Shown one piece after another: positions 6,084-25,402 of a DNA stretch of 64,000 nucleotides; within the stretch, counting starts at the first letter, position 1, and each line of letters begins with the position of its first letter. The stretch covers positions 6,974 to 70,973 of the forward strand of contig JBEKLN010000013.1 in the NCBI GenBank assembly GCA_050010175.1, in the 5' to 3' direction. A program made the translations under genes and the position numbers. Source of the DNA: Rhizomicrobium sp. (GTDB lineage Bacteria > Pseudomonadota > Alphaproteobacteria > Micropepsales > Micropepsaceae). The notes under the pieces are model-generated. The model was not told the DNA's origin. It did no database searches and was given only the letters and a program-made list of their open reading frames with translations.

Positions 6084-6105
6084 ACGGAGTGTGCGAAAAC
6101 GGGGC

Positions 6106-11830: not shown

Positions 11831-12720
11831 GCGGCGGGTTTCCACACCGAACGCACATGGCGCAGCGGCCGCATGCCGTCGACTGGATCGGCGCGCCATT
11901 CGCGGTCTTCGATCTCGCAAGCTTGCGGCCCCTTGAAGCCATTGCCGTCGGCCTGCTCCGACTCGCGGATGCGCGCGATGACCGGCGCGATCTCGTCCGG
12001 CAGCCAGCAATGGCCGGCAGCATATTCCGCACCCTTTCCGTCGAGATCGAGATGGAATTCCACTGCGGCGGCATTCCAGTGATGTACGGCGCGTTCGATC
12101 ACCGACGCCTTGCGGGTGTGATCTGACCAACCCACGGGGCAGCCTGTCGCCTCGCGGATGGTGGCAATCGCAGAGAGATTGGCTTCGCCGGGCGGCGTCG
12201 GATACGCAGACACGCAATGCAGCAGCGTGATATCGCTTGCGCCTGCGGTTTGCAGCGTCGCTGCGGCCTGTTTGATTTCGTCGAGAGTCGCCATGCCGGT
12301 GGACAGCACGACGGGCTTGCCGCTTTTGGCGCAGGCGTCGAGCAACGGCGTTACGAGAAGTTCGTAGGACGCGACCTTGTAGAAATCGACGTGAGGCGCC
12401 AGCTCGTCGACCGCGGCGGCATAAAACGGCGTACACGAGAACCGAATGCCGCGCGCGCGGCAGCGCTCGGCCAATGGCGCCAGATGCGCGACCGGCAATT
12501 CCCACTCGCGGCGCGCCCGATGCTTGGCGCTCTGCGCCAGGATTTCCGGGGCAAACATGCGGTCGATCTTGAACAGCTGGAATTTTACCGCGTCGCCGCC
12601 GCAATCCGCTGCGGCGTCCACAAAGGCGAGCGCGCGGCCGAGATCGCGGCCGTGATTGGACGATGCTTCGGCGATGAAGAGAGGTCGCACGCGCGCGAAT
12701 CCCTTTTGACCCTTAACCAT
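11827..12720 (-). CDS. pseI: NeuB/PseI-family nonulosonate synthase lacking the C-terminal SAF/AFP-like domain
   Basis: IAEASSNHG, AVKFQ, YKVASYE, LSTGMA, LLHCVSAYP, GWSDHT; only 297 aa; start codon uncertain. Confidence 0.88.
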   Translation of the reverse strand: MVKGQKGFARVRPLFIAEASSNHGRDLGRALAFVDAAADCGGDAVKFQLFKIDRMFAPEILAQSAKHRARREWELPVAHLAPLAERCRARGIRFSCTPFYAAAVDELAPHVDFYKVASYELLVTPLLDACAKSGKPVVLSTGMATLDEIKQAAATLQTAGASDITLLHCVSAYPTPPGEANLSAIATIREATGCPVGWSDHTRKASVIERAVHHWNAAAVEFHLDLDGKGAEYAAGHCWLPDEIAPVIARIRESEQADGNGFKGPQACEIEDREWRADPVDGMRPLRHVRSVWKPAA

Positions 12721-12753
12721 TTCTAAAGCTCATTTGGCTAAGAGTTGGTTAAC
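12713..12753. promoter_or_regulatory. CtrA-like boxes at the divergent pseI / sulfotransferase promoter
   Basis: TTAA-CCATTTC-TAAA (12713-12727) and CTAA-GAGTTGG-TTAAC (12738-12753). Confidence 0.65.
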
Positions 12754-12792: not shown

Positions 12793-13629
12793 GTGAGTTC
12801 GACCACCAGGCCCTTTTTCATCGTGTCCAGCGGCCGTTCGGGCACGGCGATGCTTCACAAGGTTCTGTCCGCGGAACCCACCGTAGAGATGCACCATGAA
12901 TACATGGTGCACATCGTCCAGCCGCTGGCCGTGAAGCGCTATATGGGCTGGATCGGTTCACCGGATGCCGCGCGGGTTCTCGGCGAAACCCACTGCGCCG
13001 CCATTCGCTACAGCGACAAAACATTCTGGGGCGATTCGTCCAACAAGCTGTCCTGGCTCATTCCGGAACTGTCCGCATTGCTGCCGGATGCGAAATTCGT
13101 TCATCTCGTGCGCGACGGCCGGAAAGTGGCGAGTTCCTATTTCCACAAGCTCGGCCAGGAGTGTTACGACGACCGCTCCACGGCGACTCTTGCCACCTAT
13201 GCGCGCCATCGGGAGAAAATCCCCGCGCCGCCGCCTGAAAAGAAATACTGGTGGCCGCTTGGCCGGCCCGGCGATTCAGGCGCCGCAAGATTTGAGGATT
13301 TCAACCAGTTCGAGCGCATTGCGTGGCACTGGGCGGAGATCAACCGCGTCATCCTTGACGCGGTTCAACCACTACCGGAACACCGCAAGACTTTCGTCCG
13401 CCTCGAAGATCTTGAATCCGACGCGGCCAGCGTGCGGCATCTGTTTGAGTTTCTCGGCCTCGGATACCGCAACGAACACGCCCAGATGTTTGCCCGTCCG
13501 CACAACATCAACCGCCCTGAAGACCGGCTTCTCGATCCGGATCAGACCCAACGATTCGAGCGAATCGCGTCGCCTATGATGAGGGCACTGGGCTATGCGG
13601 GAAAACCGGAATACGTAGTGAATTATTAA
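12793..13629 (+). CDS. PAPS-dependent sulfotransferase family protein
   Basis: FFIVSSGRSGTAML (5'-PSB loop), FVHLVRDGRKVASS (3'-PB motif), VRLEDL; GTG start inferred. Confidence 0.85.
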   Translation: MSSTTRPFFIVSSGRSGTAMLHKVLSAEPTVEMHHEYMVHIVQPLAVKRYMGWIGSPDAARVLGETHCAAIRYSDKTFWGDSSNKLSWLIPELSALLPDAKFVHLVRDGRKVASSYFHKLGQECYDDRSTATLATYARHREKIPAPPPEKKYWWPLGRPGDSGAARFEDFNQFERIAWHWAEINRVILDAVQPLPEHRKTFVRLEDLESDAASVRHLFEFLGLGYRNEHAQMFARPHNINRPEDRLLDPDQTQRFERIASPMMRALGYAGKPEYVVNY

Positions 13630-13676
13630 CGCCGTTCGGGGAAGGATGGTTAGCGGAAGGTTCCCGAGGGGCTCTC

Positions 13677-14849
13677 ATGTACGCAGTTTGCGAACTTTGT
13701 CGCCGCGAGCATCTAACGCGGGTGTACGAGCCGGACGCGTCGAAGCGTGGATTGAAAGTTTACGCGTGCACGCATTGCGGACTTGTTCAAAGCCTGCCGC
13801 GCATCGATCGGGCCCCGCGCGCGCCGGCTGCCGTTTCCGGCGGTTCAGATTGGGGAAACGTCCGCTATGGCAAGGCGTTCCGGACGAACGTGGTGCTCTC
13901 GCTGCTCGACCGGCACGCCAATCTGTCAGGCGAATTGTCCGTTCTCGACGTCGGTTCCAATCGCGGCAGCTTCGTAAAGGCCTTTCTCGATATTGCGGAT
14001 CTTGCCTGCGTCGTGGCCGTCGAGCCGGACGAACGGGTTGCTTCGGCATGTGGCGGACTTGATCGTGTCGAGCTGATCAATGACCGCATCGAGAATGTTG
14101 CGCTGGAAACGGCGCGGTTCGATATCGTCCATTCCTGCCACACCATTGAACATCTCGCCGATCCCGCCCGCGTTCTTGCCGATCACTGGCGCGTGCTGAA
14201 ACCGGGAGGCCTGCTCATCCTGGATGCGCCCAACATCGCGTTTCTGGCAGCGAACGATATCGTCGAGGAATGGTTTATCGACAAGCATCTCTATCACTTC
14301 TCGGCGCGCACGCTGATGCGGTTGGTGGAAGCCGCCGGGTTCGAAGTGATCGTGGCGCCGGATATCGCCGACCGCGAAAACCTGCTCCTCATTGCACGGA
14401 AATCCTACACCGCGCATCGCGCCGTTGATGCAGATCCCCGTGAAGTCGCCTCGAGCGAGGAGCTGATCGCACAGTATGTCGTGAGCAGAGCGCGGAATCT
14501 CGCCGCGCTGACGTTCGTGGCGGCCGAAATCGCCGCGATGCGGCCGAAGCGTGTCGCCATCTGGGGCGCGGGGCGGATTTTCGATTCGCTTGTGACGCAC
14601 GGCGGTCTGGCGGCAGCTTCTCTGACACTGCTCGTCGACGCGCATCTGAAGGCGCATGTGCCCGATCGCTTCGGCTGTCCGCTCAAGGGGCCGGAAGATT
14701 TGAACACTGCCAAGCCGGACGTCGTCATCGTGATGTCGCGGGCCTTCGCAGATGAAATCTCCCGCGAGGCGCGCCGTCTCGTGCCCGGCGCCGAAATCAT
14801 TCTCTACACGGATTTGTTGGCGCGCGTGCGCCACAAAAAGGCAGCGTGA
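13677..14849 (+). CDS. Class I SAM methyltransferase with N-terminal Zn-binding Cys motif (sugar C-/O-methyltransferase-like)
   Basis: CELC...CTHC, VLDVGSNRG, HTIEHL, C-terminal VAIWGAG Rossmann-like domain. Confidence 0.85.
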   Translation: MYAVCELCRREHLTRVYEPDASKRGLKVYACTHCGLVQSLPRIDRAPRAPAAVSGGSDWGNVRYGKAFRTNVVLSLLDRHANLSGELSVLDVGSNRGSFVKAFLDIADLACVVAVEPDERVASACGGLDRVELINDRIENVALETARFDIVHSCHTIEHLADPARVLADHWRVLKPGGLLILDAPNIAFLAANDIVEEWFIDKHLYHFSARTLMRLVEAAGFEVIVAPDIADRENLLLIARKSYTAHRAVDADPREVASSEELIAQYVVSRARNLAALTFVAAEIAAMRPKRVAIWGAGRIFDSLVTHGGLAAASLTLLVDAHLKAHVPDRFGCPLKGPEDLNTAKPDVVIVMSRAFADEISREARRLVPGAEIILYTDLLARVRHKKAA

Positions 14850-14855
14850 CGCATC

Positions 14856-15767
14856 ATGGCATTGGCTCTTGCAAAATCCATCGGACCCGGAACGACTCTT
14901 TCTGCCCGCGGATTGCCGGAACAAATCGCCGAAGCGGCAAAATTCGTGCGCCAGCATGCGATTGCCGCCATCTATCATGCGGGCTCCGGACATCCGGGCG
15001 GCGCCCTTTCCTGCGCCGATATTCTCGCCTGCCTTTACGGCGCAGAACTGAACATCTGGCCGTCGGCCGTCGATGATCCGAACCGCGACCGCTTCGTCCT
15101 CTCCAAGGGACATGCCGCACCGGCACTCTATGCCGTGGGCGCGCATTACGGCTTCTGCGATGCAAAGGCAGCGCTCAATCTGCGCAAACCGGGAAGTCTG
15201 TTTCAGGGCCATCCGCACGTGCTCGACCTCCCCTTCGTCGAAACCAGCACCGGCTCGCTCGGACAGGGATTTTCGGTTGCGCTTGGCATGGCGATGGGTT
15301 TGCGGATGCAGAAGAGCGGCGCGCGCGTTTACGCGCTGCTTGGCGACGGCGAACTGCAGGAGGGTGAAGTCTGGGAAGCCGCGATGTGCGCGGCCCATCA
15401 TAAGCTCGATAACCTGTGCGCCATCGTCGACTATAACAAATTGCAGAGCGACGCGCGCAACGATGCGATCATGCGCTTGGAACCACTCACCGCCAAATGG
15501 CGCGCGTTCGACTGGGCCGTCGCCGAGATCGACGGACACGACATCGGACAAATTTTGTCGGGACTGCGCCGCGCGGGTGCAACGGTCGGCCGTCCGTCGA
15601 TTCTGATCGCGCACACGGTCAAGGGCAAAGGCGTTCCGACCATGGAAGACGTGCCGCAGTGGCACGGCAGCGTGAAGCTGACGCGCGCGCAGGCCGAAGA
15701 TGCCCTTGCGGCCCTTCATGCCACGCCAATGGAAATCAAGGATTTACTCGATGTCGACGCCGCCTGA
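14856..15767 (+). CDS. Transketolase N-terminal (TPP-binding) subunit
   Basis: GHPGGALS, DRFVLSKGHA, STGSLGQG, GDGELQEG, HTVKGKG. Confidence 0.93.
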   Translation: MALALAKSIGPGTTLSARGLPEQIAEAAKFVRQHAIAAIYHAGSGHPGGALSCADILACLYGAELNIWPSAVDDPNRDRFVLSKGHAAPALYAVGAHYGFCDAKAALNLRKPGSLFQGHPHVLDLPFVETSTGSLGQGFSVALGMAMGLRMQKSGARVYALLGDGELQEGEVWEAAMCAAHHKLDNLCAIVDYNKLQSDARNDAIMRLEPLTAKWRAFDWAVAEIDGHDIGQILSGLRRAGATVGRPSILIAHTVKGKGVPTMEDVPQWHGSVKLTRAQAEDALAALHATPMEIKDLLDVDAA

Positions 15768-16725
15768 CGCACCATCACTGATCGGCACCAGCGGCGATTC
15801 GCTGCGCGAAGCGTTCGGTAAGGCGCTTTCATCCCTGGCCGACGAGTTTCCCAGGCTTGTCGTGCTTGACGCCGATATTGCCGGTGGAACGGGTGTGCAT
15901 CATTTCCGCAAGAACCATCCCTCGCGCTTTCTTCAGTTCGGTATTGCCGAACAGAATATGATGGCCGCGGCCGGCGGTCTCGCCGCTACCGGGCTGCTTC
16001 CGGTCGTGACGACATTTGCCGTGTTCTGCCTCAGAGCAGTGGAGCAGGCACGGCTTTCAATTGCCTATTGCCGGCGCAACGCGAAGATCGTCGCCAGCCA
16101 TCCCGGACTGGACGTCGGCCCCGATGGCGGCTCAGCGCAGGCGTTGGAAGATATCGCCGCGTTCCGAGCCATTCCCGGCATGACGGTTATCTCGCCGGCC
16201 GATCCCATCGAGACCGCACTCGCGACACGTGCGATCCTGGAATTCGACGGACCTGTTTATATGCGTACCGGCCGCAGCCCCACGACGCGCATCTTCGGCG
16301 ACGCTCATAAGTTCGAAATCGGCAAAGGGCAGATCGTGCGCGACGGCTGCGATCTGACGATCATCGCCTGCGGCGTGGAAGTTGCGCGCGCCCTCGAAGC
16401 GGCGGAGATGCTGCAATCCGATCAGATTTCGGCCCGTGTCGTGAACATGGCGACGATCAAGCCGATCGACCGCGATCTGATCACGCGATGCGCCAAGGAA
16501 ACCGGTGCCATCGTGACGGCCGAAGACCACAACATTTACGGCGGTCTCGGAGGCGCGGTCGCGGAATCCCTTGTGCAGACGCGCCCATGTCCGATGGAAT
16601 TTGTCGGTGTGAAGGATATCTTCGGCGCATCCGGGGAGCCGCAGGAGCTCGCGGCGCTGTTCGGATTGAACGCGGCGCACATTGTCCAGGCGGCCAGACG
16701 GGTCCTGAAGCGGAAGAGCCATTGA
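15751..16725 (+). CDS. Transketolase C-terminal subunit
   Basis: LREAFGKAL, GIAEQNMM, DGGSAQ, VYMRTGR, EDHNIYGGLG. Confidence 0.93.
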   Translation: MSTPPDAPSLIGTSGDSLREAFGKALSSLADEFPRLVVLDADIAGGTGVHHFRKNHPSRFLQFGIAEQNMMAAAGGLAATGLLPVVTTFAVFCLRAVEQARLSIAYCRRNAKIVASHPGLDVGPDGGSAQALEDIAAFRAIPGMTVISPADPIETALATRAILEFDGPVYMRTGRSPTTRIFGDAHKFEIGKGQIVRDGCDLTIIACGVEVARALEAAEMLQSDQISARVVNMATIKPIDRDLITRCAKETGAIVTAEDHNIYGGLGGAVAESLVQTRPCPMEFVGVKDIFGASGEPQELAALFGLNAAHIVQAARRVLKRKSH

Positions 16726-16727
16726 AC

Positions 16728-17483
16728 ATGCAGCGATTTTCGCTTGCCGGCCGCACGGCCGTCGTCACCGGCGGCAGCCGCGGCATCGGCCGCGCGATTG
16801 CGATCGGTCTGGCGGAAGCGGGAGCCGACGTCGCGTTCACCTATCGCGATCGCGAAAAGGATGCAGCCGGCGTTTCCAAGCAGATCGAGGCTCTGGGCCG
16901 CCGCGCGCTTGCACTGAAGATGGATGTGACCGACCGTGGCAGCGTGGAGGCCGCGGCCCGGGATGCGCATGCAAAGCTCGGCGCGATCTCCATTCTCGTC
17001 AACAATGCCGGCGTCAACCGGCCGACGGATTTCGACAAGATCGAGGACGCCGACTGGGATTTCGTTCTCGATACGAATCTGAAGGGGCCGTTCGTCTGCG
17101 CCCAGGTTTTTCTGCCGCTGCTGGCGCAATCGGGCCACGGCAGCATCATTCACGTCGGCTCTGTCAGCGGCCAATATGGCGGGCCACGCACGGCGCATTA
17201 TGCGGCGTCGAAAGCCGGTCTCATTTCGCTCGGTCAGGTGATCGCGCGTTTCACCGCGCCGCAGGGCGTGCGGTCGAACACGATCGCCGCCGGTCTGATC
17301 GCTTCCGACATGGCCGAAGCGGCGCTGTCGTCGCCGGCAGTGCAGAAGGCGTCGGAGAACATCCTTCTCAAACGCTTCGGCTCGACACGCGAGGTGGCGG
17401 ATACCGTGGTTTTCCTGGCGAGTGACGCGGCGTCCTACATCACGGCGCAGACCATCAATGTGAACGGCGGACTTTATTTCTGA
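16728..17483 (+). CDS. SDR-family oxidoreductase (FabG-like)
   Basis: TGGSRGIG, NNAG, YAASK. Confidence 0.92.
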   Translation: MQRFSLAGRTAVVTGGSRGIGRAIAIGLAEAGADVAFTYRDREKDAAGVSKQIEALGRRALALKMDVTDRGSVEAAARDAHAKLGAISILVNNAGVNRPTDFDKIEDADWDFVLDTNLKGPFVCAQVFLPLLAQSGHGSIIHVGSVSGQYGGPRTAHYAASKAGLISLGQVIARFTAPQGVRSNTIAAGLIASDMAEAALSSPAVQKASENILLKRFGSTREVADTVVFLASDAASYITAQTINVNGGLYF

Positions 17484-18700
17484 TGGGCAAGACGCTGCTG
17501 ATCGTTTCCGGCGGAATCGAAGCGGCGGCTGCAGCGCGGCGGGCGAAGGAGCTTGGGCACTACGTCATCGTATCCGATCGCGATCCCGAAGCGCCGGGCT
17601 TTGAATTCTCCGATTCCCGCCTCATCGCCGATGTCTACGGCGCGACCGAAACAGCCGCTGCGGCCGAGCGTTTCAGCCGCAAGATCCGCAAGATCGACGG
17701 CGTGCTCTGTGTCGCGGCCGACGCCCCGATGACGGTTGCCGCCGTTGCAGCAAAATTGGGAATTCCCGGCCTGTCGAGCGAAAGCGCGCGGCTCGCCTCC
17801 GACAAACTCGCCATGAAGGAACGCTTCCGCGACGCGGGCGTGCCTATTCCGTGGTTCTCCATCGTCGATACGCCGCAGGCACTGGGGCGCGTCGCGGTGG
17901 AGCGCGGCAGCGATCTCGTCGTCAAGCCGGCCGACAGCCGGGGTAGCCGTGGCGTGCAGCGCATTGCCCGCGTGAAGGATCTGAATGCCGCGTTCGCGCT
18001 GGCGCAATCGCACTCGCCGACCCAGCGCGTGATGGTCGAGCAGTATCTTTCGGGGCCGCAGGTCTCCACCGAATCCGTGATCGTCAACCGCCGCTGCTTC
18101 ACGCCGGGGATGTCCGACCGCAACTACGAATTTCTCGAGCGCTACGCGCCGTTCTTCGTGGAGAATGGCGGCGATCTCCCCAGCGCGCTCGGCTTCGACG
18201 TGCAGGAGAAGGTCAAGGCCGTGGTGGCGAAGGCCGCCGCTGCGCTCGGTATCGTCAATGGCACGGTCAAGGGCGACATCGTCGTTCACGACAACGAAGC
18301 GTATGTCATCGAGATGGCGGCGCGGCTGTCGGGCGGATTTTTCTGCACGCGCGAAATTCCCCTGTCGTCGGGCGTCGATTTTATCGGCGCAGCCATCAAG
18401 GTTGCGCTGGGCGAAACGCCGGCGCCGGAAGAACTGGAGCCGCGCCAGTCCGTGGCGGTCATCCAACGCTATGCATTCCCAACCCCTGGCAAGATCGTCT
18501 CCATCCGGGGCGACGACGACGCGCGCGCCATGCCGGGCATCGCCGATGTGGTGGTGACGGCGAAGAGCGGCGACATCATCCCGCCCGCGGGCGACAAGCG
18601 GCCGTCCGCCGCGATGGTGCTGGCGACCGGCGACACGCGTGACGCGGCGCTTGCCAATGCGAACGCGGCGCTCGCCAGACTGCGCATCGAGACCGTATGA
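17483..18700 (+). CDS. ATP-grasp ligase (amide-forming, L-amino-acid-ligase-like)
   Basis: DKLAMKERF, VVKPADSRGSRGV, MVEQYLSG, IEMAARLSG. Confidence 0.88.
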   Translation: MGKTLLIVSGGIEAAAAARRAKELGHYVIVSDRDPEAPGFEFSDSRLIADVYGATETAAAAERFSRKIRKIDGVLCVAADAPMTVAAVAAKLGIPGLSSESARLASDKLAMKERFRDAGVPIPWFSIVDTPQALGRVAVERGSDLVVKPADSRGSRGVQRIARVKDLNAAFALAQSHSPTQRVMVEQYLSGPQVSTESVIVNRRCFTPGMSDRNYEFLERYAPFFVENGGDLPSALGFDVQEKVKAVVAKAAAALGIVNGTVKGDIVVHDNEAYVIEMAARLSGGFFCTREIPLSSGVDFIGAAIKVALGETPAPEELEPRQSVAVIQRYAFPTPGKIVSIRGDDDARAMPGIADVVVTAKSGDIIPPAGDKRPSAAMVLATGDTRDAALANANAALARLRIETV

Positions 18701-20682
18701 ACGCGCCTCTGGCTCATCGCGAACCTGGCGTCCGAGCCGGTACGCTCGACCTGTTCGCGCTGTTTCACCTCAATCTCGCGTTTTCCTCCATCGAGGAAGA
18801 GCGTCGCGCGGACGTGATCCGCTGCTGCTATCGGCCGCTGCTCGAGCTGGCAGACGCGCATGGTCCTATCGGCCTGGAAATCACCGGCTATACGCTTGAG
18901 GAAATCGCCCGCATCGATCCGCAGTGGTGCGCCCGCGCCCGCGCCCTGATCGCATGCGGCAAGATCGAATTGATCGGCTCGGGTTATGCGCAATTGATCG
19001 GCCCGCTGGTGCCGGCGCGCGTCAGCGAAGCCAATCTGCGCATCGGCAATAAGGTGTATCGTTCACTCCTGGGCGTTCAGCCCACCCTCGCACTGGTGAA
19101 CGAACAGGCATACGCGGCGGGGTTGGTCGGGCTCTATCTCGATGCAGGCTATTGCGCCATCCTGATGGATTGGGACAATCCCTCCGCTCACCATCCCGAA
19201 TGGCCGGACGAAACCCGTTACCTGCCGCAACGCGCAGTCGGCAGCGACGGTCGGGACATCGGCCTGTTATGGACAAGCACCGTCGCCTTCCAGAAGCTCC
19301 AGCGCTTCGTGCACGGAGACATCGCGCTCGATGCATTCTGCAGTTACCTTTCAGGTCGACGCGGCACAAGCGATCGCGCTCTCTGTTTCTATTCGAATGA
19401 CGCGGAGATTTTTGACTTCCGTCCCGGCCGCTACAAGACCGAAGAGGCGCGCTCGGAGACGAGCGAGTGGCAGAGACTCTCAGACGTGTTTGCCTGGGCG
19501 CGTAGCGAACCCGGCTGCCGCCTCGTGATGCCCAGCGAAGCGTTGGGGCTCACCAGCAGCACGTTCGCCGGCCAGCGCCTGCATCTTGAATCCGCGACCT
19601 GCCCGGTGCCGGTTAAAAAGCAGCGCAAGTACAATCTCGCCCGTTGGGCGGTGACGGGACGCGACGATCTGGCGATCAATGCGGCGTGCGAGCGCATCTA
19701 TCGCGGGCTTGTTGTGCACGGCGCCGACGATGCGGCCTGGAAGGAGCTCTGCTATCTCTGGTCGAGCGATTTTCGCACGCACATCACGGAAAAGCGCTGG
19801 ACGGCCTATTGCGCGCGGCTGCAGGAAGCCGAGCGGCGTTGGAGTATCCCGCCGAAACCATTTCCCGAATCTGCGACGGCCGAAACCGTCTCGACCCGCC
19901 ATCTCGACATCCGCACGCCTTATGTCAGTGCCGTGCTCGACAGGCGCCGCGGGCTCGCCGTCGATGCGCTGCAGTTCGCAGGGCACGCGCGTCCCGCCAT
20001 CGGCGGCCTGCCGCACGGCCATTTCGACGACATTTCGCTGCAGGCCGACTGGTACACGGGCGATTGCGTCTTCGAAGCCCCCGGCGAACACAAGGTCGCG
20101 GATTTGGATTGGTGCGAGGCACATGTGCATCGGGACGACAGCGGCGACGTCCGTGTTGCCGCGCGCATCGACACGCCCAAGGGTCCGATCGACAAACACA
20201 TCCGCATTCACGCCACAGAACCACGCATCGATTTCGACATCACATTCCATTGGCCGGACTGGGGAAAGGGATGCCTGCGCGTCGGGCACGTTACGCTGCT
20301 GCCGGATGCTTTCGACCGCGCACGGCTTCGCTTAACGACGCATAACGGCGGTAAGGATTGCGAAACCTTTTGCCTTAACGGTCACGATGTCGACCACGGC
20401 GCCCCCGTATCCTTTCTCGTCTCGTCGTCCTTCGGCTTCGGCATGACGGAAGGCTGGGCCGAACTGGGCGACGACAAAACCCGCGTCCGCATCGATGTCG
20501 ACCGCGAAACCGCGCCGTTGCTGGGGCTTCTCACCCATCGCCGCGCGGGCGGAAGCCTGTTTTGCCAGCTCGTGCTGTCGGCGCTCGAATTGGACGAAAC
20601 GCGCAAGCCCGCGCGCTACGACCGCCGCGCACGCCGCGTCCGCTTTTCCATCCGCGCCGTCGCTCCGTCAGCAGATTATTAA
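18697..20682 (+). CDS. GH57 / polysaccharide-deacetylase-like barrel hydrolase
   Basis: FHLNLAFSSIE, CYRPLL, LEITGYTLE, IELIGSGYAQLIGPL, LVNEQAY; ATGA overlap with the ATP-grasp gene. Confidence 0.65.
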   Translation: MNAPLAHREPGVRAGTLDLFALFHLNLAFSSIEEERRADVIRCCYRPLLELADAHGPIGLEITGYTLEEIARIDPQWCARARALIACGKIELIGSGYAQLIGPLVPARVSEANLRIGNKVYRSLLGVQPTLALVNEQAYAAGLVGLYLDAGYCAILMDWDNPSAHHPEWPDETRYLPQRAVGSDGRDIGLLWTSTVAFQKLQRFVHGDIALDAFCSYLSGRRGTSDRALCFYSNDAEIFDFRPGRYKTEEARSETSEWQRLSDVFAWARSEPGCRLVMPSEALGLTSSTFAGQRLHLESATCPVPVKKQRKYNLARWAVTGRDDLAINAACERIYRGLVVHGADDAAWKELCYLWSSDFRTHITEKRWTAYCARLQEAERRWSIPPKPFPESATAETVSTRHLDIRTPYVSAVLDRRRGLAVDALQFAGHARPAIGGLPHGHFDDISLQADWYTGDCVFEAPGEHKVADLDWCEAHVHRDDSGDVRVAARIDTPKGPIDKHIRIHATEPRIDFDITFHWPDWGKGCLRVGHVTLLPDAFDRARLRLTTHNGGKDCETFCLNGHDVDHGAPVSFLVSSSFGFGMTEGWAELGDDKTRVRIDVDRETAPLLGLLTHRRAGGSLFCQLVLSALELDETRKPARYDRRARRVRFSIRAVAPSADY

Positions 20683-20728
20683 CGACGTTCTGCAACCCTT
20701 TGGCCCGGAACAGAGGACGTTCAGGACC

Positions 20729-21817
20729 ATGGGACAACGCGCGGTTAAAATCTACCTCCAAGGCGAAGAGACGAGCGTACCCGCCGAGCCGCTCATTCGC
20801 GATTTCACGCAGCCCTGGCTCGATCTGAACGACAAGGCCGTTCTCGTCACCGGCGGTACCGGCTCCTTCGGCAAGCATTTCGTGAAGCTCATGATCGAAC
20901 GCTATCGGCCGCGGCGTCTGGTGATTTTCTCGCGCGACGAGATGAAGCAATACGAGATGCAGCAACTGTTCCCGATGGAACAGTACCCTTTCATGCGCTA
21001 CTTCATCGGCGATGTGCGCGATCGCGACCGCCTGGATATGGCCATGCGCGACATCGATTTCGTGGTGCACGCGGCCGCGCTCAAGCAGGTACCCACCGCC
21101 GAATACAATCCCTTCGAATGCATCCGCACCAATGTGTTCGGCGCGGAAAACATCGTCTATGCCGCGCTCCGGAGAAACGTCCGCAAGGTGATCGCGCTGT
21201 CGACGGACAAGGCCGCCAATCCGGTCAATCTCTACGGCGCCTCCAAGCTCGCATCCGACAAGATTTTCGTTGCCGCCAACAATCTTGCCGGCGCCGACGG
21301 CACGCGGTTCGCGGTCGTGCGCTACGGCAATGTGTTCGGTTCGCGCGGCAGCGTGGTACCGTTCTTCCGCAAGCTGACCCAGGAAGGCGCAGACACACTT
21401 CCCATCACCGACACGCGCATGACGCGCTTCTGGATCACGCTCACGCAGGGCGTGAACTTCGTGCTGTCCAGTATGGAAATGGCCCGCGGCGGCGAGATCT
21501 TCGTGCCCAAGATTCCATCCACCACCATCACCGATCTGGCCAGCCTCATCGGTCCCAAGCTGCCCCAGAAAATCGTGGGTGTGCGTCCCGGAGAGAAGCT
21601 GCACGAGACCATGATCCCCGCCGACGATTCCCGCTGGACGGTGGAGATGGACGACCGCTATGTCATTCTTGCAAGCTTCGCGGCTGCGGCGCGCGAAGCC
21701 TATCTCCATCGCGGCGGCAAGCCGGTGGCGGAGGATTTCGCCTATGCGAGTGACACCAACACCGAGAGGCTCGATGCGCGCGGCCTGCAGCTGTTGCTCG
21801 CTCAGGCGTTCGAATGA
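20729..21817 (+). CDS. pseB: UDP-GlcNAc 4,6-dehydratase (inverting) PseB/FlmA
   Basis: VTGGTGSFG, FSRDEMKQ, HAAALKQVP, STDKAANPVNLYGASK, RYGNVFGSRGSV, TRFWITL. Confidence 0.95.
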   Translation: MGQRAVKIYLQGEETSVPAEPLIRDFTQPWLDLNDKAVLVTGGTGSFGKHFVKLMIERYRPRRLVIFSRDEMKQYEMQQLFPMEQYPFMRYFIGDVRDRDRLDMAMRDIDFVVHAAALKQVPTAEYNPFECIRTNVFGAENIVYAALRRNVRKVIALSTDKAANPVNLYGASKLASDKIFVAANNLAGADGTRFAVVRYGNVFGSRGSVVPFFRKLTQEGADTLPITDTRMTRFWITLTQGVNFVLSSMEMARGGEIFVPKIPSTTITDLASLIGPKLPQKIVGVRPGEKLHETMIPADDSRWTVEMDDRYVILASFAAAAREAYLHRGGKPVAEDFAYASDTNTERLDARGLQLLLAQAFE

Positions 21818-23058
21818 GCGTACCCGCGCTCAAGCCCGCGGCTCAGTCGGGCAAGAACAGCTTTCTGCCTTACGGCCGGCAGCTGATCGAGGACGATGAC
21901 ATTGCCGTCGTGGTGGAGGCGCTGAAAGGCGATCTGCTGACGACCGGGCCCTACGTCGCCCGCTTCGAAACCTCGCTCGCAAATACGGTCGGCGCCAAAC
22001 ACGCCGTCGTTTGCACCAGTGGAACCGCGGCGCTGCACATGGCCGCGCGCGCGCTCAATCTGGGCCCCGGTGCCAAGGTCATCGTTCCCGTCGTCACGTT
22101 TCTGGCGACCGCCAGCGCACCGCACATGAACGGTGCGGAGATCGTCTTCGCCGACGTCGATCCGGAGACCGGCCTCATGCGCCCGGAAGATCTGACGGAT
22201 GCGCTTTATCGCGCCGGCCATGCCGACGCCGTCTTCAATGTGCATCTGAACGGCCAGTGCGGCGAGGTCGAGGAGATCGCAGCCATTGCGCACGCGCATG
22301 GCGCGCTTGTCGTCGACGATGCCTGCCATGCGCTGGGCGCGGCCTTCATCGGCAGCGACGGCGCGGCGCGCCCCATCGGGTCGAATGCCTTCTCCGATCT
22401 CACCGTTTTCTCCTTTCATCCCGTCAAGGCGATTGCGATGGGCGAGGGCGGCGCCGTCACGACGAACAACCCCGACATGGCCAAACGTCTGGTGCGGGCG
22501 CGCAATCACGGCGTGACGCGCGATCCGTCCGAGTTCCGCAACATCGACGATGCATTCGATGCCGACGGAACGCCCAATCCCTGGTATTACGAACTGACGG
22601 GACCCGAATACAACTGGCGCGCCAACGATATCCAATGCGCGCTCGGTCTCTCCCAATTGGGCAAACTCGGACGCTTCATCGCGCGGCGCAGGGCTCTTGT
22701 GGCGCGCTACGACGCGCTGTTCTCCGGCTATGCGCCGGCGCTGCGTCCGGTGGGGCGCACGCGCATGTGCCTGCCGGCATGGCATCTCTATGTCGTGCGG
22801 ATCGATTTCAAATCGGCCGGCATCACGCGCGGCGAGCTGATGCGGCAATTATCTGCGGACGGCATCGGTTCGCAGGTCCACTATTTTCCGGTTCACCGCC
22901 AGCCTTACTATGCCGATCGCTACGGCGCGATCGATCTGCCTGGGGCGGACTGCTACTACGACAGCGTGCTCAGTCTTCCGCTCTTTGCATCCATGACCGA
23001 AGACGACGTGGGGACTGTCGGCCGGGCGCTGCTGCGCCATCTCAATCTGCCGTACTGA
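21814..23058 (+). CDS. pseC: DegT-family aminotransferase PseC/FlmB
   Basis: LPYGRQLI, SGTAALH, DDACHALG, FSFHPVKAIAMGEGG, QVHYFPVH. Confidence 0.93.
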   Translation: MSVPALKPAAQSGKNSFLPYGRQLIEDDDIAVVVEALKGDLLTTGPYVARFETSLANTVGAKHAVVCTSGTAALHMAARALNLGPGAKVIVPVVTFLATASAPHMNGAEIVFADVDPETGLMRPEDLTDALYRAGHADAVFNVHLNGQCGEVEEIAAIAHAHGALVVDDACHALGAAFIGSDGAARPIGSNAFSDLTVFSFHPVKAIAMGEGGAVTTNNPDMAKRLVRARNHGVTRDPSEFRNIDDAFDADGTPNPWYYELTGPEYNWRANDIQCALGLSQLGKLGRFIARRRALVARYDALFSGYAPALRPVGRTRMCLPAWHLYVVRIDFKSAGITRGELMRQLSADGIGSQVHYFPVHRQPYYADRYGAIDLPGADCYYDSVLSLPLFASMTEDDVGTVGRALLRHLNLPY

Positions 23059-23162: not shown

Positions 23163-23250
23163 GCCGCATAAATCGTCTTCTTATTACACCCAACCACTCT
23201 TTTTCGCCGCGGGGACGAGCCGTTATGACGGCTCTGGCCTTGGGGAAGTT

Positions 23251-23282
23251 GACGTCGGAAGCGCCTGCGCGCTTCCGACGTC
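23251..23282 (-). terminator. 14-bp hairpin just downstream of flagellin 1
   Basis: GACGTCGGAAGCGC-CTGC-GCGCTTCCGACGTC. Confidence 0.65.
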
Positions 23283-23288
23283 GGGATT

Positions 23289-24122
23289 TTATCCGAACAA
23301 CTTCAGTGTGATGGATGGCGCCTGGTTGGCGATCGACAACGCCTGCACGCCGAGCTGCTGCTTGGTCTGCAAGGACGTCAGCATGGCGCTTTCCGTTGCC
23401 ATGTTGGCGTCGACGAGATTGCCGATGCCCGTGGTCAGGGCGTCGGACAACTGAGACACGAAGCTCGACTGAATCGAGAACTTCGCCGAGCCACTGGAGA
23501 GTGTCGCCAGCGCCGAGTTGACGTTGGTAAGCGAGGACTCGATCGTTGCGACCATCGTGGACGCCTTGGACTGCGTCGAGATGGTTCCCGTGGAGGAGAT
23601 CGTCACGATCGACCCGGACAGGCTCATGTTCTCGGCCGCGACAGTGATGCGATGCGTACCGTCGGCCGACGCCAGCGCGGTGATCTGGTTGGTCGAACCG
23701 TTGATCAGATTGAAGCCGTTGAACTGGGCGTTCTGGACGACCGATGCGATCTGGTCCTTCAGGGCGACGAAGTTCGAGTTGAGCGCCTGCCGGCTCGCCG
23801 TGTCGAGCGACTGGTCGGAAGCGGACAAAGCGGTTTGCTTCATCTGGATCAGCAGGTCGGAGATCGACTGACCGGCCGACATGGCCACGTCGACGGTCGA
23901 CATGCCGCGTGCAAGGCTGTCGCTGACCGCGCTGTAGCCCGCAACGTCGCCGCGCATGTTCTGCGCGATTGCGAAGACGGCGCCGTTGTCCTGCGCGTTG
24001 GCGACCTTCAGGCCCGTGTCGACCGCGTTCTGTACCTGGGTCAACTGGGCGTTGGTCTGATTGAGGTATTCCAGCGCCGTCATGGCGCCTGTGTTGGTGT
24101 TTACGCTAAGTCCGCCACTCAT
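23289..24122 (-). CDS. fliC: Flagellin 1 (277 aa)
   Basis: LSVNTNTGAMTAL, TGLKVANAQDNGAVFAIAQNMR, GIGNLVDANMATES...QALSIANQAP; GGAG RBS. Confidence 0.97.
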   Translation of the reverse strand: MSGGLSVNTNTGAMTALEYLNQTNAQLTQVQNAVDTGLKVANAQDNGAVFAIAQNMRGDVAGYSAVSDSLARGMSTVDVAMSAGQSISDLLIQMKQTALSASDQSLDTASRQALNSNFVALKDQIASVVQNAQFNGFNLINGSTNQITALASADGTHRITVAAENMSLSGSIVTISSTGTISTQSKASTMVATIESSLTNVNSALATLSSGSAKFSIQSSFVSQLSDALTTGIGNLVDANMATESAMLTSLQTKQQLGVQALSIANQAPSITLKLFG

Positions 24123-25333: not shown

Positions 25334-25402
25334 TCCCATTCTCCATACCGTTGGGGCGGCGACTTTCTGCCGTCTGGGGCCCACTGCCCCGCGGTAAGTT
25401 TC

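What the first reader, a model, noticed from the sequence alone, without database searches (positions are those of the whole stretch)
12793..23058. Candidate new pathway: flagellin nonulosonate decorated by a sulfotransferase/methyltransferase/transketolase/SDR/ATP-grasp/GH57 tailoring operon
Seen: nine co-oriented genes, most with overlapping or nearly abutting stop/start codons, ending in pseB-pseC. They are divergent from pseI and the PseF-PseG fusion, with CtrA-like boxes between, and lie beside two flagellins and two FlmG enzymes. Known: the canonical Pse route is PseB-C-H-G-I-F, and FlmG transfers nonulosonates to flagellin in Caulobacter. Inference: transketolase plus SDR build a polyhydroxy acid, the methyltransferase and sulfotransferase modify it or the sugar, the ATP-grasp enzyme amidates it onto the amino sugar, and the GH57-like protein may deacylate N5. 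The product would be an anionic, bulky Pse derivative. O-methylated polyhydroxyacyl Pse is known on Treponema denticola flagellin, but I do not know this gene set as a characterised pathway. An alternative is that the transketolase builds a branched or extended sugar.
Basis: partly seen in the sequence, partly recalled or inferred. Interest (0 to 1): 0.85.

Follow-up and report, generated by a model that had tools for sequence, protein, structure and literature searches.

The report
Flagellin sugar-tailoring operon, Pse-derivative pathway
This is a real nine-gene operon, conserved across bacterial phyla, that most likely replaces one acetyl group of the flagellar sugar pseudaminic acid with a larger methylated and sulfated hydroxy-acid chain; related gene sets are known genetically in Shewanella, but no enzyme of this set has been characterised.

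Summary
Nine co-oriented, mostly overlapping genes (12793-23058) encode a sulfotransferase, a methyltransferase, a split transketolase, an SDR, an ATP-grasp ligase, a GH57-like protein, PseB and PseC. They diverge from a short PseI and a PseF-PseG fusion. Two flagellins, FlaF/FlbT and two FlmG-type transferases flank them. No PseH is present.

In 61 Micropepsales loci the order is kept, always beside flagellin (40/40) and FlmG (38/38). The block transketolase-SDR-ATP-grasp recurs in at least four other lineages. Sulfotransferase-methyltransferase(-transketolase) fusion proteins exist.

The closest known system is Shewanella sfmABCDE (NeuB, ThDP enzyme, SDR, methyltransferase, ATP-grasp). It puts a nitrogen-free, O-methylated C9H16O7 moiety on mono-acetyl Pse.

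Best reading: the ATP-grasp enzyme replaces PseH and ligates a transketolase/SDR-built, methylated and sulfated polyhydroxy acid to N7.

The methyltransferase resembles sugar C-methyltransferases, so C-methylation stays open.

Verdict: a new variant of a known kind. The chemistry is inferred.

The parts
6010..7632 (+). FlmG-type flagellin glycosyltransferase paralogue 1 (N-terminal TPR, C-terminal about 300 aa; the start codon is uncertain)
   Evidence: TPR Pfam hits. It is 31% identical to FlmG2 over the full length, including the C-terminal domain. CtrA-like boxes lie at 6035 and 6068. It is syntenic next to pseFG in related loci.
10016..11830 (-). PseF-PseG fusion (CMP-transferase plus UDP-sugar hydrolase), 604 aa
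   Evidence: CTP_transf_3, 114 bits. TIGR03590 PseG matches residues 261-526 at 95 bits, which is below its cutoff. Fusions of 584-606 aa occur in Geobacter, L087, L089 and L093.
11827..12720 (-). Short NeuB/PseI-type nonulosonate synthase, 297 aa, lacking the C-terminal SAF domain
   Evidence: PF03102, 204.7 bits. It scores below the PseI and NeuB equivalog cutoffs. It is 60-64% identical to the short NeuB of cassettes in other phyla.
12713..12752 (.). Divergent promoter spacer with two CtrA-like boxes (TTAACCATTTCTAAA and CTAAGAGTTGGTTAA)
   Evidence: Both boxes are conserved in 49/49 orthologous spacers.
12793..13629 (+). PAPS-type sulfotransferase (Sulfotransfer_3), GTG start
   Evidence: PF13469, 62.8 bits. 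Orthologues start at the equivalent position. It is present in 48/51 related loci. Homologues are fused to the methyltransferase and to TK-N.
13677..14849 (+). SAM methyltransferase with a 4-Cys zinc ribbon and a C-terminal domain (KijD1/TcaB9-like build)
   Evidence: A profile matches KijD1 (5t64) over residues 28-367, E 4e-7. The DKHLYHFS motif aligns to the TcaB9 DEH(225)FFLFS motif. C5, C8, C31 and C34 are invariant.
14856..15767 (+). Split transketolase, N-terminal (ThDP-binding) subunit
   Evidence: PF00456, 164 bits; NF004559, 297 bits.
15751..16725 (+). Split transketolase, C-terminal (pyrimidine-binding) subunit
   Evidence: The best PDB match is the split transketolase 6yaj, E 9e-90. 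The equivalents of R318, H416, D424 and R474 are kept and Ser345 is replaced by Gly. The signature DADxAGGTG is shared by all cassette transketolases.
16728..17483 (+). FabG-like short-chain dehydrogenase/reductase
   Evidence: adh_short_C2, 208 bits. Orthologues are 61% identical in Solidesulfovibrio and 47% identical in Vicinamibacterales.
17483..18700 (+). ATP-grasp carboxylate-amine ligase with an L-amino-acid-ligase C-terminal domain; proposed substitute for PseH
   Evidence: LAL_C2, 69 bits, plus ATP-grasp_3. PDB relatives are listed. Orthologues are 36-49% identical in six distant cassettes.
18697..20682 (+). GH57-like two-domain protein, predicted to be catalytically competent; role unresolved
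   Evidence: PF03065. AF2 model plus Foldseek: 1k1x (GH57) ranks first, followed by GH38 enzymes. Invariant E136 and D235 align to E123 and D214 of 1k1w.
20729..21817 (+). PseB, UDP-GlcNAc 4,6-dehydratase (inverting)
   Evidence: TIGR03589, 511 bits against a cutoff of 407.75.
21814..23058 (+). PseC aminotransferase
   Evidence: TIGR03588, 433.9 bits against a cutoff of 423.5.
23249..23284 (.). Terminator-like hairpin with a 16-bp stem, between pseC and the convergent flagellin gene
23289..24122 (-). Flagellin 1 (about 277 aa, with a Ser/Thr-rich centre); a CtrA-like box lies at 24217-24231
   Evidence: Flagellin_N and Flagellin_C; translation; box.
24503..25339 (-). Flagellin 2 (about 278 aa)
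25592..26327 (-). flaF and flbT flagellin regulators (25592-25969 and 25902-26327)
   Evidence: PF07309, E 4e-31; PF07378, E 1.5e-44.
26497..28254 (+). FlmG-type flagellin glycosyltransferase paralogue 2 (TPR + GT-B); a CtrA-like box lies at 26440-26454
   Evidence: TPR hits. AF2 pLDDT 85.4. The top Foldseek matches are SPINDLY and OGT, E 7e-15. Box.

Best explanation
The operon, together with the divergent pseI and pseF-pseG genes, makes a CMP-activated pseudaminic acid derivative for O-glycosylation of the two adjacent flagellins by the two FlmG-type transferases.

Proposed route:
1. PseB and PseC make UDP-4-amino-4,6-dideoxy-beta-L-AltNAc.
2. There is no PseH. The ATP-grasp ligase instead acylates the 4-amino group, which becomes N7 of Pse, with a carboxylic acid.
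3. The acid is built by the split transketolase and the SDR. The transketolase transfers a glycolaldehyde unit to an aldehyde that already carries an anionic (carboxylate) end. The SDR reduces the resulting ketone to give a polyhydroxy acid.
4. The methyltransferase and the PAPS-type sulfotransferase tailor this moiety.
5. PseG removes UDP, the SAF-less short PseI condenses the bulky hexose with PEP, and PseF adds CMP.

The GH57-like protein is a frequent partner of the ATP-grasp enzyme and is predicted to be an active retaining glycosidase. Its step is unknown. My guess is that it releases a free reducing sugar acid, for example from UDP-glucuronate.

Shown: gene content, order, conservation, family membership and conserved catalytic residues.
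Inferred: every substrate, the order of the steps, and N7 as the site of acylation.
For: Family assignments.

No PseH or GNAT was found among the ORFs I scanned against Pfam or NCBIfam.

Synteny in 61 Micropepsales loci:
- SDR 57/57
- transketolase 55/55 and 56/56
- methyltransferase 49/51
- sulfotransferase 48/51
- flagellin 40/40
- FlmG 38/38

The orthologous block transketolase-SDR-ATP-grasp occurs in:
- a Solidesulfovibrio plasmid
- Vicinamibacterales
- an unclassified bacterium
- a low-GC organism, with the sulfotransferase included
- another flagellin locus

Where the transketolase is missing, other enzymes that act on keto or aldehyde acids take its place:
- UxaC + SDR beside Maf and flagellin in Geobacter
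- KduI + an aminotransferase
- a ThDP decarboxylase + Fe-ADH
- an IlvB-like ThDP enzyme beside the sulfotransferase and a methyltransferase

Fusion proteins sulfotransferase-methyltransferase and sulfotransferase-methyltransferase-TK-N exist.

Shewanella sfmABCDE has the same enzyme classes and similar protein sizes. It yields mono-acetyl Pse (274 Da) plus C9H16O7, C10H18O7 or C11H20O7. This moiety is nitrogen-free and O-methyl groups are seen by NMR.

T. denticola flagellin carries 2-methoxy-4,5,6-trihydroxyhexanoyl-Pse.

The transketolase keeps the Arg, His and Arg residues that bind the distal anionic group of the substrate.

ATP-grasp homologues sit beside 4,6-dehydratase and DegT aminotransferase pairs in capsule loci of Parabacteroides and Enterococcus.

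FlmG2 has the TPR + GT-B fold.
Against: - No enzyme of the set has been assayed, and no glycan data exist for any Micropepsales species.
- The methyltransferase resembles NDP-sugar C-methyltransferases. It may therefore act on the sugar rather than on the acid.
- The LAL_C2 domain would also fit an amino-acid substrate.
- The transketolase's conserved phosphate-type site would also fit ordinary sugar phosphates.
- The GH57-like protein has no assigned step. It is absent from two otherwise complete cassettes, and paralogues sit in unrelated polysaccharide loci.
- Sequence-level orthology to the Sfm proteins could not be tested.
- Distant cassettes are often next to Wzx, Wzy or glycosyltransferase genes, so flagellin targeting is specific to this lineage.
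Confidence: 0.55

Rival explanations
1. Skeleton-modification model. The KijD1/TcaB9-like methyltransferase C-methylates the UDP-4-keto sugar made by PseB. The ThDP enzyme plus the SDR add and reduce a two-carbon branch, in the manner of YerE/YerF in yersiniose synthesis. The result is a branched or extended nonulosonate rather than an N-acyl chain.
For: The methyltransferase has the three-domain build, the 4-Cys zinc ribbon and the conserved catalytic His of sugar 3-C-methyltransferases. The pairing of a ThDP enzyme with an SDR resembles YerE/YerF; this comparison rests on my own knowledge and was not tested here.
Against: In Shewanella the 274-Da unit has the exact formula of an ordinary mono-acetyl Pse (oxonium C11H19N2O6+). 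The methyl groups sit as O-methyl on a separate nitrogen-free moiety. The equivalent of TcaB9 Glu224 is Lys, and the Methyltransf_14 score is below its cutoff. Transketolases use aldehyde acceptors, not keto acceptors. PseC still needs the 4-keto group. This model gives the ATP-grasp ligase no role.
Confidence: 0.12
2. The ATP-grasp enzyme ligates something other than a transketolase-derived acid. One option is that it attaches an amino acid to the sugar amine, as in glutamyl-legionaminic acid of Clostridium botulinum. Another is that it amidates the sugar's own carboxylate. The transketolase and SDR would then supply an unrelated substituent such as a polyol or polyol phosphate.
For: The LAL_C2 domain is present, and the closest solved relatives are L-amino-acid ligases and D-Ala-D-Ala ligases. 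The phosphate-binding Arg, His and Arg of the transketolase are kept.
Against: The Shewanella moiety contains no nitrogen. The ATP-grasp enzyme is the constant partner of variable acid-forming enzymes such as UxaC, KduI and ThDP decarboxylases. No amino-acid-modifying genes are present in the cassette.
Confidence: 0.12
3. In this organism the Pse derivative goes mainly to LPS, capsule or EPS, and its position next to the flagellin genes is incidental.
For: Distant cassettes lie beside Wzx flippase, Wzy, GT4 or GT2 genes, with no flagellin nearby.
Against: Within the order, flagellin is linked in 40/40 loci and FlmG in 38/38. CtrA-like boxes are shared by the cassette, flagellin and FlmG promoters. 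Geobacter and L093 also place the cassette beside Maf or flagellin. There is no flippase, polymerase or lipid-carrier transferase in the window.
Confidence: 0.07
4. The transketolase and SDR are housekeeping genes that landed in the operon by chance.
For: Both belong to large housekeeping families.
Against: They are linked to the ATP-grasp gene in at least five unrelated lineages and are fused to the sulfotransferase and methyltransferase. The DADxAGGTG signature is specific to cassette transketolases.
Confidence: 0.02

Closest known systems
Shewanella oneidensis sfmABCDE flagellin-modification operon (SO_3261-SO_3265; PMC3765264), with the neighbouring pseB/pseC genes and the oversized cytidylyltransferase SO_3269
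   Same: The enzyme classes and protein sizes match. The NeuB-only synthase is 290 aa there and 297 aa here. The FabG-like SDR is 255 versus 251 aa. The SAM methyltransferase is 395 versus 390 aa. The ATP-grasp is 412 versus 405 aa. Both have a ThDP-dependent enzyme, no clear PseH, and an unusually large cytidylyltransferase (here a PseF-PseG fusion). The product in Shewanella is mono-acetyl Pse plus a nitrogen-free, O-methylated C9-C11 polyhydroxy moiety on flagellin serines.
   Different: The ThDP enzyme there is IlvB-like rather than a split transketolase. The published five-gene operon contains no sulfotransferase and no GH57-like gene. The transferases are Maf proteins rather than FlmG. 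Orthology at the sequence level was not testable here. The Shewanella glycan structure and its enzymology are themselves unsolved.
Treponema denticola FlaB glycan, 2-methoxy-4,5,6-trihydroxyhexanoyl-pseudaminic acid (Kurniyati 2017, cited via PMC13439194)
   Same: It is a solved example of the predicted product class: Pse with one N-acyl group replaced by an O-methylated polyhydroxy acid, O-linked to flagellin.
   Different: The gene set in T. denticola could not be examined because the paper is not held. No sulfate is reported. The chain there is a C6 3-deoxy-hexonate type, with no hint of a transketolase extension.
Canonical Pse5Ac7Ac pathway PseB-C-H-G-I-F (Campylobacter, Helicobacter) and Caulobacter FlmG-dependent flagellin pseudaminylation
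   Same: PseB and PseC score above their equivalog cutoffs. PseG-, PseI- and PseF-type domains are present. The TPR + GT-B transferases sit beside small flagellins together with flaF and flbT.
   Different: PseH is absent. PseI lacks the SAF domain and scores below the equivalog cutoff. PseF and PseG are fused. Seven extra genes are inserted ahead of pseB-pseC.
KijD1 / TcaB9 NDP-sugar 3-C-methyltransferases
   Same: The methyltransferase shares the zinc ribbon, the SAM domain and the C-terminal domain. The D-x-H-(F/L)-x-x-F-S motif with the catalytic His is kept.
   Different: Similarity is low (E about 1e-6 to 1e-7). The Glu next to the catalytic His is Lys. Some orthologues lack the C-terminal domain (L061). 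The protein is fused to a sulfotransferase in other organisms.
GH57 4-alpha-glucanotransferase of Thermococcus litoralis (1K1W/1K1X)
   Same: Both have the two-domain fold. The nucleophile Glu123 and the acid/base Asp214 align to invariant E136 and D235.
   Different: Sequence identity is only about 12%. The genomic context is nonulosonate synthesis, not alpha-glucan metabolism. The substrate is unknown.
Campylobacter jejuni Pse with a 2,3-di-O-methylglyceroyl N-acyl group, and the C. jejuni capsule ATP-grasp amidoligase Cj1438 (both cited from my own knowledge, not checked here)
   Same: These are precedents for an O-methylated hydroxyacyl Pse on flagellin and for an ATP-grasp enzyme forming sugar amide bonds.
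   Different: The genes are different, and there is no transketolase, sulfotransferase or GH57-like component.

Membership tests
Pseudaminic acid pathway | PseB equivalog (inverting UDP-GlcNAc 4,6-dehydratase) | tested here: met
   TIGR03589, 511.1 bits against a cutoff of 407.75.
Pseudaminic acid pathway | PseC equivalog (aminotransferase) | tested here: met
   TIGR03588, 433.9 bits against a cutoff of 423.5.
Pseudaminic acid pathway | PseH N-acetyltransferase | tested here: not met
   No GNAT or PseH was found in any window ORF that I scanned. A copy elsewhere in the genome cannot be excluded.
Pseudaminic acid pathway | PseG UDP-sugar hydrolase | tested here: inconclusive
   TIGR03590 is the best hit for residues 261-526 of the fusion, but at 95 bits it is below the cutoff of 153.55.
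Pseudaminic acid pathway | PseI synthase with the NeuB and SAF domains | tested here: inconclusive
   The NeuB domain scores 204.7 bits. TIGR03586 scores 166 bits against a cutoff of 340, and the SAF domain is absent.
Pseudaminic acid pathway | PseF cytidylyltransferase | tested here: inconclusive
   CTP_transf_3 scores 114 bits. TIGR03584 scores only 26 bits against a cutoff of 205.7.
FlmG-class flagellin glycosyltransferase | N-terminal TPR domain plus a C-terminal GT-B domain (as defined in bioRxiv 10.1101/2022.03.25.485807) | tested here: met
   TPR Pfam hits. AF2 pLDDT 85.4. The top Foldseek matches are SPINDLY and OGT, which are TPR + GT-B enzymes, at E 7e-15. The C-terminal domain has no Pfam or PDB sequence match.
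FlmG-class flagellin glycosyltransferase | Transfers Pse or Leg to flagellin | not testable with these tools
   Only linkage is available: 38/38 loci.
Shewanella sfm-type flagellin modification operon | A NeuB-only synthase, a ThDP enzyme, an SDR, a SAM methyltransferase and an ATP-grasp in one locus | tested here: met
   All five enzyme classes are present, with similar protein sizes.
Shewanella sfm-type flagellin modification operon | The ThDP enzyme is of the IlvB/acetolactate-synthase type | tested here: not met
   Here it is a split transketolase. An IlvB-like version does occur with the same sulfotransferase family in L095.
Shewanella sfm-type flagellin modification operon | Sequence orthology to SfmA-E | not testable with these tools
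GH57 glycoside hydrolases | Catalytic nucleophile Glu and acid/base Asp in the (beta/alpha)7 barrel | tested here: met
   A profile matches 1k1w at E 7.5e-9. E136 aligns to E123 and D235 to D214, and both are invariant in 18 diverse homologues. The assignment of catalytic roles in 1K1W is from my own knowledge.
GH57 glycoside hydrolases | Activity on alpha-glucans | not testable with these tools
   The genomic context argues for a different substrate.
Transketolase (split type) | Two subunits homologous to a characterised split transketolase; residues that bind the substrate phosphate | tested here: inconclusive
   6yaj matches at E 9e-90. The equivalents of R318, H416, D424 and R474 are kept, but Ser345 is Gly and Q428/His is Ala. 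The residue roles are from my own knowledge of human transketolase.
NDP-sugar C-methyltransferases (TcaB9/KijD1) | Zinc ribbon, SAM domain, C-terminal domain and the catalytic His | tested here: inconclusive
   The build and the His are present. Methyltransf_14 scores 18.7 bits against a cutoff of 23.5, and the equivalent of Glu224 is Lys.
CtrA-regulated flagellar genes | A TTAA-N7-TTAA or TTAACCAT box in the promoter | tested here: met
   Two one-mismatch boxes are present, one of which contains TTAACCAT, and both are conserved in 49/49 spacers. Binding by CtrA itself is not testable here.

The most novel reading that the evidence does not exclude
Proposed reading: a widespread, cross-phylum 'sugar-acid N-acyl nonulosonate' pathway.

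- An ATP-grasp ligase replaces PseH.
- A ThDP carboligase (transketolase here, IlvB-like in Shewanella) extends a free hexuronate by two carbons.
- An SDR reduces the product to an octonic acid.
- The GH57-like enzyme supplies the free uronate by cleaving an alpha-linked precursor such as UDP-glucuronate.
- A dedicated sulfotransferase then yields what would be, as far as I could find, the first O-sulfated flagellin glycan.

The arithmetic fits the Shewanella formula: hexuronate + C2H4O + 2H - H2O + CH2 = C9H16O7.

For this window, the same logic predicts glycan residues of about 512.19 Da (unmodified), 526.20 (methylated), 592.14 (sulfated) and 606.16 (methylated and sulfated) on flagellin Ser/Thr.
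Probability: 0.2. Interest if true: 0.8.

Novelty: new variant of a known kind. Interest (0 to 1): 0.6.

Why it matters
Flagellin glycans shape filament assembly, motility, phage recognition and immune recognition. The atypical Pse derivative of Shewanella has stayed structurally unsolved since 2013.

This cassette and its relatives give a genetic rule for such derivatives. The marks are: no PseH; an ATP-grasp ligase; a short NeuB that lacks the SAF domain; a PseF-PseG fusion; and a swappable acid-building module.

The GH57-like marker alone has thousands of homologues in Alphaproteobacteria, Desulfobacterota, Acidobacteriota and other groups.

Working out the pathway would add new enzymology:
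- amide ligation to a nucleotide amino sugar
- a transketolase subfamily with an altered phosphate-binding site
- a GH57-clan enzyme outside glucan metabolism
- a sulfotransferase for a bacterial protein glycan

It would also make the mass and charge of flagellar glycans predictable from genomes.

Tried and rejected
- A perfect TTAA-N7-TTAA box is not present in the divergent spacer. Only one-mismatch boxes are present.
- I rejected the TTG start at 12745 for the sulfotransferase, because orthologues begin at the equivalent of GTG 12793.
- A single-sequence PDB search with the GH57-like protein gave nothing useful. A profile was needed.
- I rejected the idea that the GH57-like protein is an N5-deacylase. 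The glycosidase dyad is invariant, and a separate PIG-L deacetylase is present in L092.
- I tested whether the transketolase Ser-to-Gly change tracks the presence of the sulfotransferase. It does not; every cassette transketolase has it.
- PDB sequence searches with the sulfotransferase and with the FlmG C-terminal domain found nothing. Pfam at E up to 10 found nothing for the FlmG C-terminal domains. The fold was obtained with AF2 instead.
- S. oneidensis Sfm sequences could not be reached. The plasmid collection returned Solidesulfovibrio as the only close cassette relative; the other ATP-grasp hits were 32% identical or less.
- The T. denticola glycan paper (PMC5182079) and the amidoligase survey (PMC3268129) are not held.
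- The ORFs at 28328-28795 and 28693-29265 are artefacts of a CRISPR array.
- The window's 390-aa methyltransferase is not the methyltransferase shared by distant cassettes. Those carry an approximately 305-aa type.
- Literature searches for transketolase, GH57 or sulfotransferase together with flagellin or Pse found nothing relevant.

Full report
**What is there**

The window is 62% G+C with no compositional break over the locus. On the + strand from 12793 to 23058 lie nine ORFs.
- a Sulfotransfer_3 protein;
- a class I SAM methyltransferase;
- the N and C subunits of a split transketolase;
- a FabG-like SDR;
- an ATP-grasp enzyme with an L-amino-acid-ligase C-terminal domain;
- a 661-aa GH57-like protein;
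- PseB (TIGR03589, 511 bits, above its cutoff);
- PseC (TIGR03588, 434 bits, above its cutoff).

The gaps between successive genes are 47, 6, -17, 2, -1, -4, 46 and -4 nt. A strong hairpin terminator follows pseC.

Divergently transcribed are a 297-aa NeuB-family synthase without a SAF domain and a 604-aa fusion of a cytidylyltransferase with a PseG-like domain.

The neighbourhood is flagellar:
- flgI and a rod-binding gene lie upstream;
- two flagellins of about 277 aa lie downstream;
- flaF and flbT follow them;
- two paralogous TPR proteins flank the locus.

The model of the second TPR protein (pLDDT 85) matches SPINDLY and OGT, which are TPR + GT-B protein O-glycosyltransferases. This is the architecture that defines FlmG (bioRxiv 10.1101/2022.03.25.485807).

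No PseH or GNAT was found among the window ORFs that I scanned.

**Regulatory boxes**

The 72-nt spacer between pseI and the sulfotransferase gene has no perfect TTAA-N7-TTAA. It has two one-mismatch boxes, TTAACCATTTCTAAA and CTAAGAGTTGGTTAA. The whole window has 8 such boxes against 2.1 expected. Six of the eight lie in this spacer, at the start of the first FlmG gene, and in the promoter regions of flagellin 1 and of the second FlmG gene. Both spacer boxes are present in 49 of 49 orthologous spacers. This is a clear phylogenetic footprint. Assigning it to CtrA is an inference.

**Conservation within the order**

A scan of GTDB genomes with the GH57-like protein returned 80 loci. Nearly all are Rhizomicrobium or Micropepsaceae MAGs, plus Rhizomicrobium electricum DSM 21034. 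In 61 of these loci the ATP-grasp gene abuts the GH57-like gene. Counting only loci with enough flank:
- SDR 57/57;
- transketolase 55/55 and 56/56;
- methyltransferase 49/51;
- sulfotransferase 48/51;
- pseI 49/50;
- flagellin 40/40;
- an FlmG-type gene 38/38.

Roughly two in five of these loci (20 of 49) carry an extra methyltransferase of about 300 aa between pseI and the sulfotransferase. The window lacks it.

**Conservation outside the order**

- The Solidesulfovibrio carbinolicus plasmid pDCAR1 has a divergent NeuB gene, followed by pseF, a cytidylyltransferase, a methyltransferase, FabG, TK-N, TK-C, a methyltransferase, ATP-grasp, a glycoside hydrolase, pseB and pseC. Identities to the window proteins are 44-66%.
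- The block transketolase-SDR-ATP-grasp-GH57 also occurs in a Vicinamibacterales MAG and in an unclassified bacterium.

Elsewhere the ATP-grasp/GH57 pair is kept and the upstream enzymes change:
- UxaC + SDR in Geobacter metallireducens, immediately beside a Maf transferase, fliS, fliD and flagellin;
- a split ThDP decarboxylase + Fe-ADH in Maridesulfovibrio;
- KduI + an aminotransferase + a second ATP-grasp;
- an SDR + two methyltransferases beside a Wzx flippase;
- a GFO/IDH oxidoreductase + a TK-N-like protein beside Wzy.

The short NeuB is 60-64% identical across these phyla, more than PseB or PseC. The ATP-grasp and GH57-like proteins are orthologous throughout.

**The sulfotransferase**

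Its family is small, with 86 representatives at E <= 1e-30. Several members are fusions: sulfotransferase-methyltransferase (649-722 aa) and sulfotransferase-methyltransferase-TK-N (946 aa). I sampled four contexts.
- L092, a low-GC organism, has the window's gene order: methyltransferase, sulfotransferase-methyltransferase fusion, TK-N, TK-C, SDR, ATP-grasp. Between the ATP-grasp and the GH57-like gene it adds PIG-L, a formyltransferase, NeuB and an unassigned 337-aa ORF, and pseB follows.
- L093 places the cassette beside flaF, flbT and two flagellins, and has no GH57-like gene.
- L094 has three B12-radical SAM genes followed by the triple fusion.
- L095 has NeuB, an IlvB-like ThDP enzyme, the sulfotransferase and a methyltransferase.

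The sulfotransferase and methyltransferase are therefore tied to the ThDP step, whichever ThDP family supplies it.

**Individual enzymes**

*GH57-like protein.* The AF2 model has a mean pLDDT of 69.5, with the N-terminal barrel better resolved. The best structural match is the T. litoralis GH57 4-alpha-glucanotransferase, followed by GH38 mannosidases. A profile of 18 diverse homologues hits 1k1w at E 7.5e-9. It aligns invariant E136 and D235 with E123 and D214. From my own knowledge, these are that enzyme's nucleophile and acid/base catalyst. This points to an active retaining glycosidase, not a deacetylase. Paralogues at about 60-62% identity sit in other polysaccharide loci of Rhizomicrobium.

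*Methyltransferase.* It has four invariant Cys (a zinc ribbon), a SAM domain and a C-terminal domain. A profile covers KijD1 almost end to end (E 4e-7) and also hits TcaB9. Its DKHLYHFS motif aligns with the TcaB9 DEH(225)FFLFS motif, so the His is kept and the Glu is replaced by Lys.

*Transketolase.* The best match is the characterised split transketolase of Carboxydothermus (E 9e-90). Against human transketolase, the equivalents of R318, H416, D424 and R474 are kept and Ser345 is Gly. All cassette transketolases share the DADxAGGTG signature, whether or not a sulfotransferase is present.

*ATP-grasp.* Relatives at about 31% identity sit next to 4,6-dehydratase and DegT aminotransferase pairs in capsule loci of Parabacteroides and Enterococcus. 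This fits N-acylation of a 4-amino sugar.

**Literature**

In the held library, only one paper links an ATP-grasp enzyme with a nonulosonic acid. It describes the Shewanella oneidensis sfmABCDE operon: a 290-aa NeuB, a TPP enzyme, a 255-aa 3-oxoacyl-ACP-reductase-like SDR, a 395-aa SAM methyltransferase and a 412-aa ATP-grasp. The operon is required for flagellin modification, and no clear PseH, PseG, PseI or PseF was found.

The glycan there is a 274-Da mono-acetyl Pse (oxonium C11H19N2O6+) bearing C9H16O7, C10H18O7 or C11H20O7. This moiety is nitrogen-free, and O-methyl groups are seen by NMR. A 2023 preprint still calls it an atypical Pse derivative and notes an oversized cytidylyltransferase, SO_3269. 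This matches the PseF-PseG fusions seen here.

T. denticola flagellins carry 2-methoxy-4,5,6-trihydroxyhexanoyl-Pse. I found no paper that links a transketolase, a GH57 enzyme or a sulfotransferase with a flagellin Pse glycan.

**Mechanism**

The best-supported reading has these steps:
1. PseB and PseC make the UDP-4-amino sugar.
2. The ATP-grasp ligase, taking the place of PseH, attaches a carboxylic acid to that amine, which becomes N7 of Pse.
3. The acid comes from a swappable module. Here it is the transketolase plus the SDR, which would give a terminal 1,2,3-triol on an acceptor that already bears a carboxylate.
4. The methyltransferase and the sulfotransferase tailor the chain.
5. PseG, the SAF-less PseI and PseF finish the CMP-sugar. 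Loss of the SAF domain plausibly makes room for the bulky acyl group; this is an inference.
6. The two FlmG-type enzymes transfer the sugar to the flagellins.

The recurrence of uronate-pathway enzymes (UxaC, KduI) in sister cassettes, and the T. denticola structure, suggest acyl chains derived from sugar acids. As arithmetic only: hexuronate + a pyruvate-derived C2 unit + 2H - H2O + CH2 equals the Shewanella C9H16O7. The transketolase analogue would give C8H14O8 (238.07 Da), or 252.08 with one methyl and 332.04 with a methyl and a sulfate. On a 274.12-Da Pse this gives 512-606 Da. These numbers are predictions, not results.

The step carried out by the GH57-like protein is unknown. My guess is that it releases a free reducing uronate from an alpha-linked precursor.

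**Rivals**

The rival readings are given with their evidence in the Rival explanations section. They are: skeleton modification by C-methylation or branching; ligation of an amino acid or amidation of the sugar's carboxylate; a non-flagellar target; and chance clustering.

**Verdict**

The broad interpretation is supported by comparative and literature evidence. The proposed GH57 role is not supported, and the claim of complete novelty needs to be softened. This is a new variant, with a transketolase, a sulfotransferase and a GH57-like protein, of a known but biochemically unsolved kind of flagellin Pse tailoring.

Noticed in passing
window 28428-34438: A type II-C-like CRISPR-Cas locus. It comprises cas9 (31154-34438, minus strand; HNH and RuvC_III domains), cas1 (30242-31141, minus), cas2 (29857-30336, minus), and an array of about 20 copies of the 36-nt repeat GTTGCGGTTGGCCCTCAATCACCAGACCGCTAAGCT at 28428-29783. 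The ORFs listed at 28328-28795 and 28693-29265 are artefacts of the array.
   Followed up: partly
window 7723-10011: An M28 peptidase with PA and TFR-dimer domains (762 aa) lies between the first FlmG-type gene and pseF-pseG. In related loci the FlmG-type gene lies about 1.3-1.5 kb from pseF-pseG, which leaves no room for it, so it appears to be a local insertion.
   Followed up: partly
window 12713-12752, 6035-6082, 24217-24231, 26440-26454: CtrA-like boxes (at most one mismatch) number 8 in the window against 2.1 expected. Six of them lie in the pseI-sulfotransferase spacer, at the start of the first FlmG gene, and in the promoter regions of flagellin 1 and the second FlmG gene. The two boxes in the pseI-sulfotransferase spacer are conserved in 49/49 related loci.
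   Followed up: yes
L008 3038-4093 and about 20 other related loci: Roughly two in five of the Micropepsales cassettes (20 of 49) carry an additional zinc-ribbon methyltransferase of about 300 aa between pseI and the sulfotransferase. It is the same type as the approximately 305-aa methyltransferase found in all distant cassettes. The window lacks it.
   Followed up: partly
P0363, P0367, P0375, P0365/P0519; loci L092-L094: Natural fusion proteins sulfotransferase-methyltransferase (649-722 aa) and sulfotransferase-methyltransferase-transketolase-N (946 aa) exist in metagenomes. Their flanking genes follow the same order as in the window.
   Followed up: yes
L060, L062, L069, L071, L072, L076: GH57-like paralogues (60-62% identical) in some Rhizomicrobium genomes sit without an ATP-grasp gene in other sugar contexts. 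These contexts include a Bac_transf sugar transferase, phosphoglucose isomerase, GDP-mannose pyrophosphorylase and a DegT aminotransferase. The family is therefore not restricted to the Pse cassette.
   Followed up: partly
window 15751-16725 and all cassette TK-C subunits: The cassette transketolases share the signature DADxAGGTG. In it, the phosphate-binding Ser of classical transketolases (human Ser345) is Gly, and the Q428/His position is often Ala. The Arg, His and Arg of the anion site are kept.
   Followed up: partly
L061 and L065: A reduced cassette variant (two methyltransferases, SDR, GH57-like, pseB, pseC) lacks both the transketolase and the ATP-grasp gene.
   Followed up: no
window 34910-38344: A transglutaminase-like protein (34910-35932, minus strand) lies near a circularly permuted ATP-grasp protein (36830-38344, minus strand). 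This pairing is a conserved two- or three-gene module of unknown function in many bacteria.
   Followed up: no
window 3077-5992: A large ORF (971 aa, minus strand) with SBBP beta-propeller repeats lies directly beside flgI and the rod-binding gene. Whether it is really coding and what it does were not examined.
   Followed up: no
window 40995-47236: A bacterial alpha-2-macroglobulin gene (1645 aa) is followed by a DDE_3 transposase at 46580-47236. The region around 46-48 kb has the lowest G+C of the window (0.574).
   Followed up: no
L086 and L090: In two Acidobacteriota loci, thiG and thiS (thiazole synthesis for thiamine) lie just downstream of the transketolase-bearing cassette. This may reflect cofactor supply, or simply shared ancestry of the two loci.
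   Followed up: no
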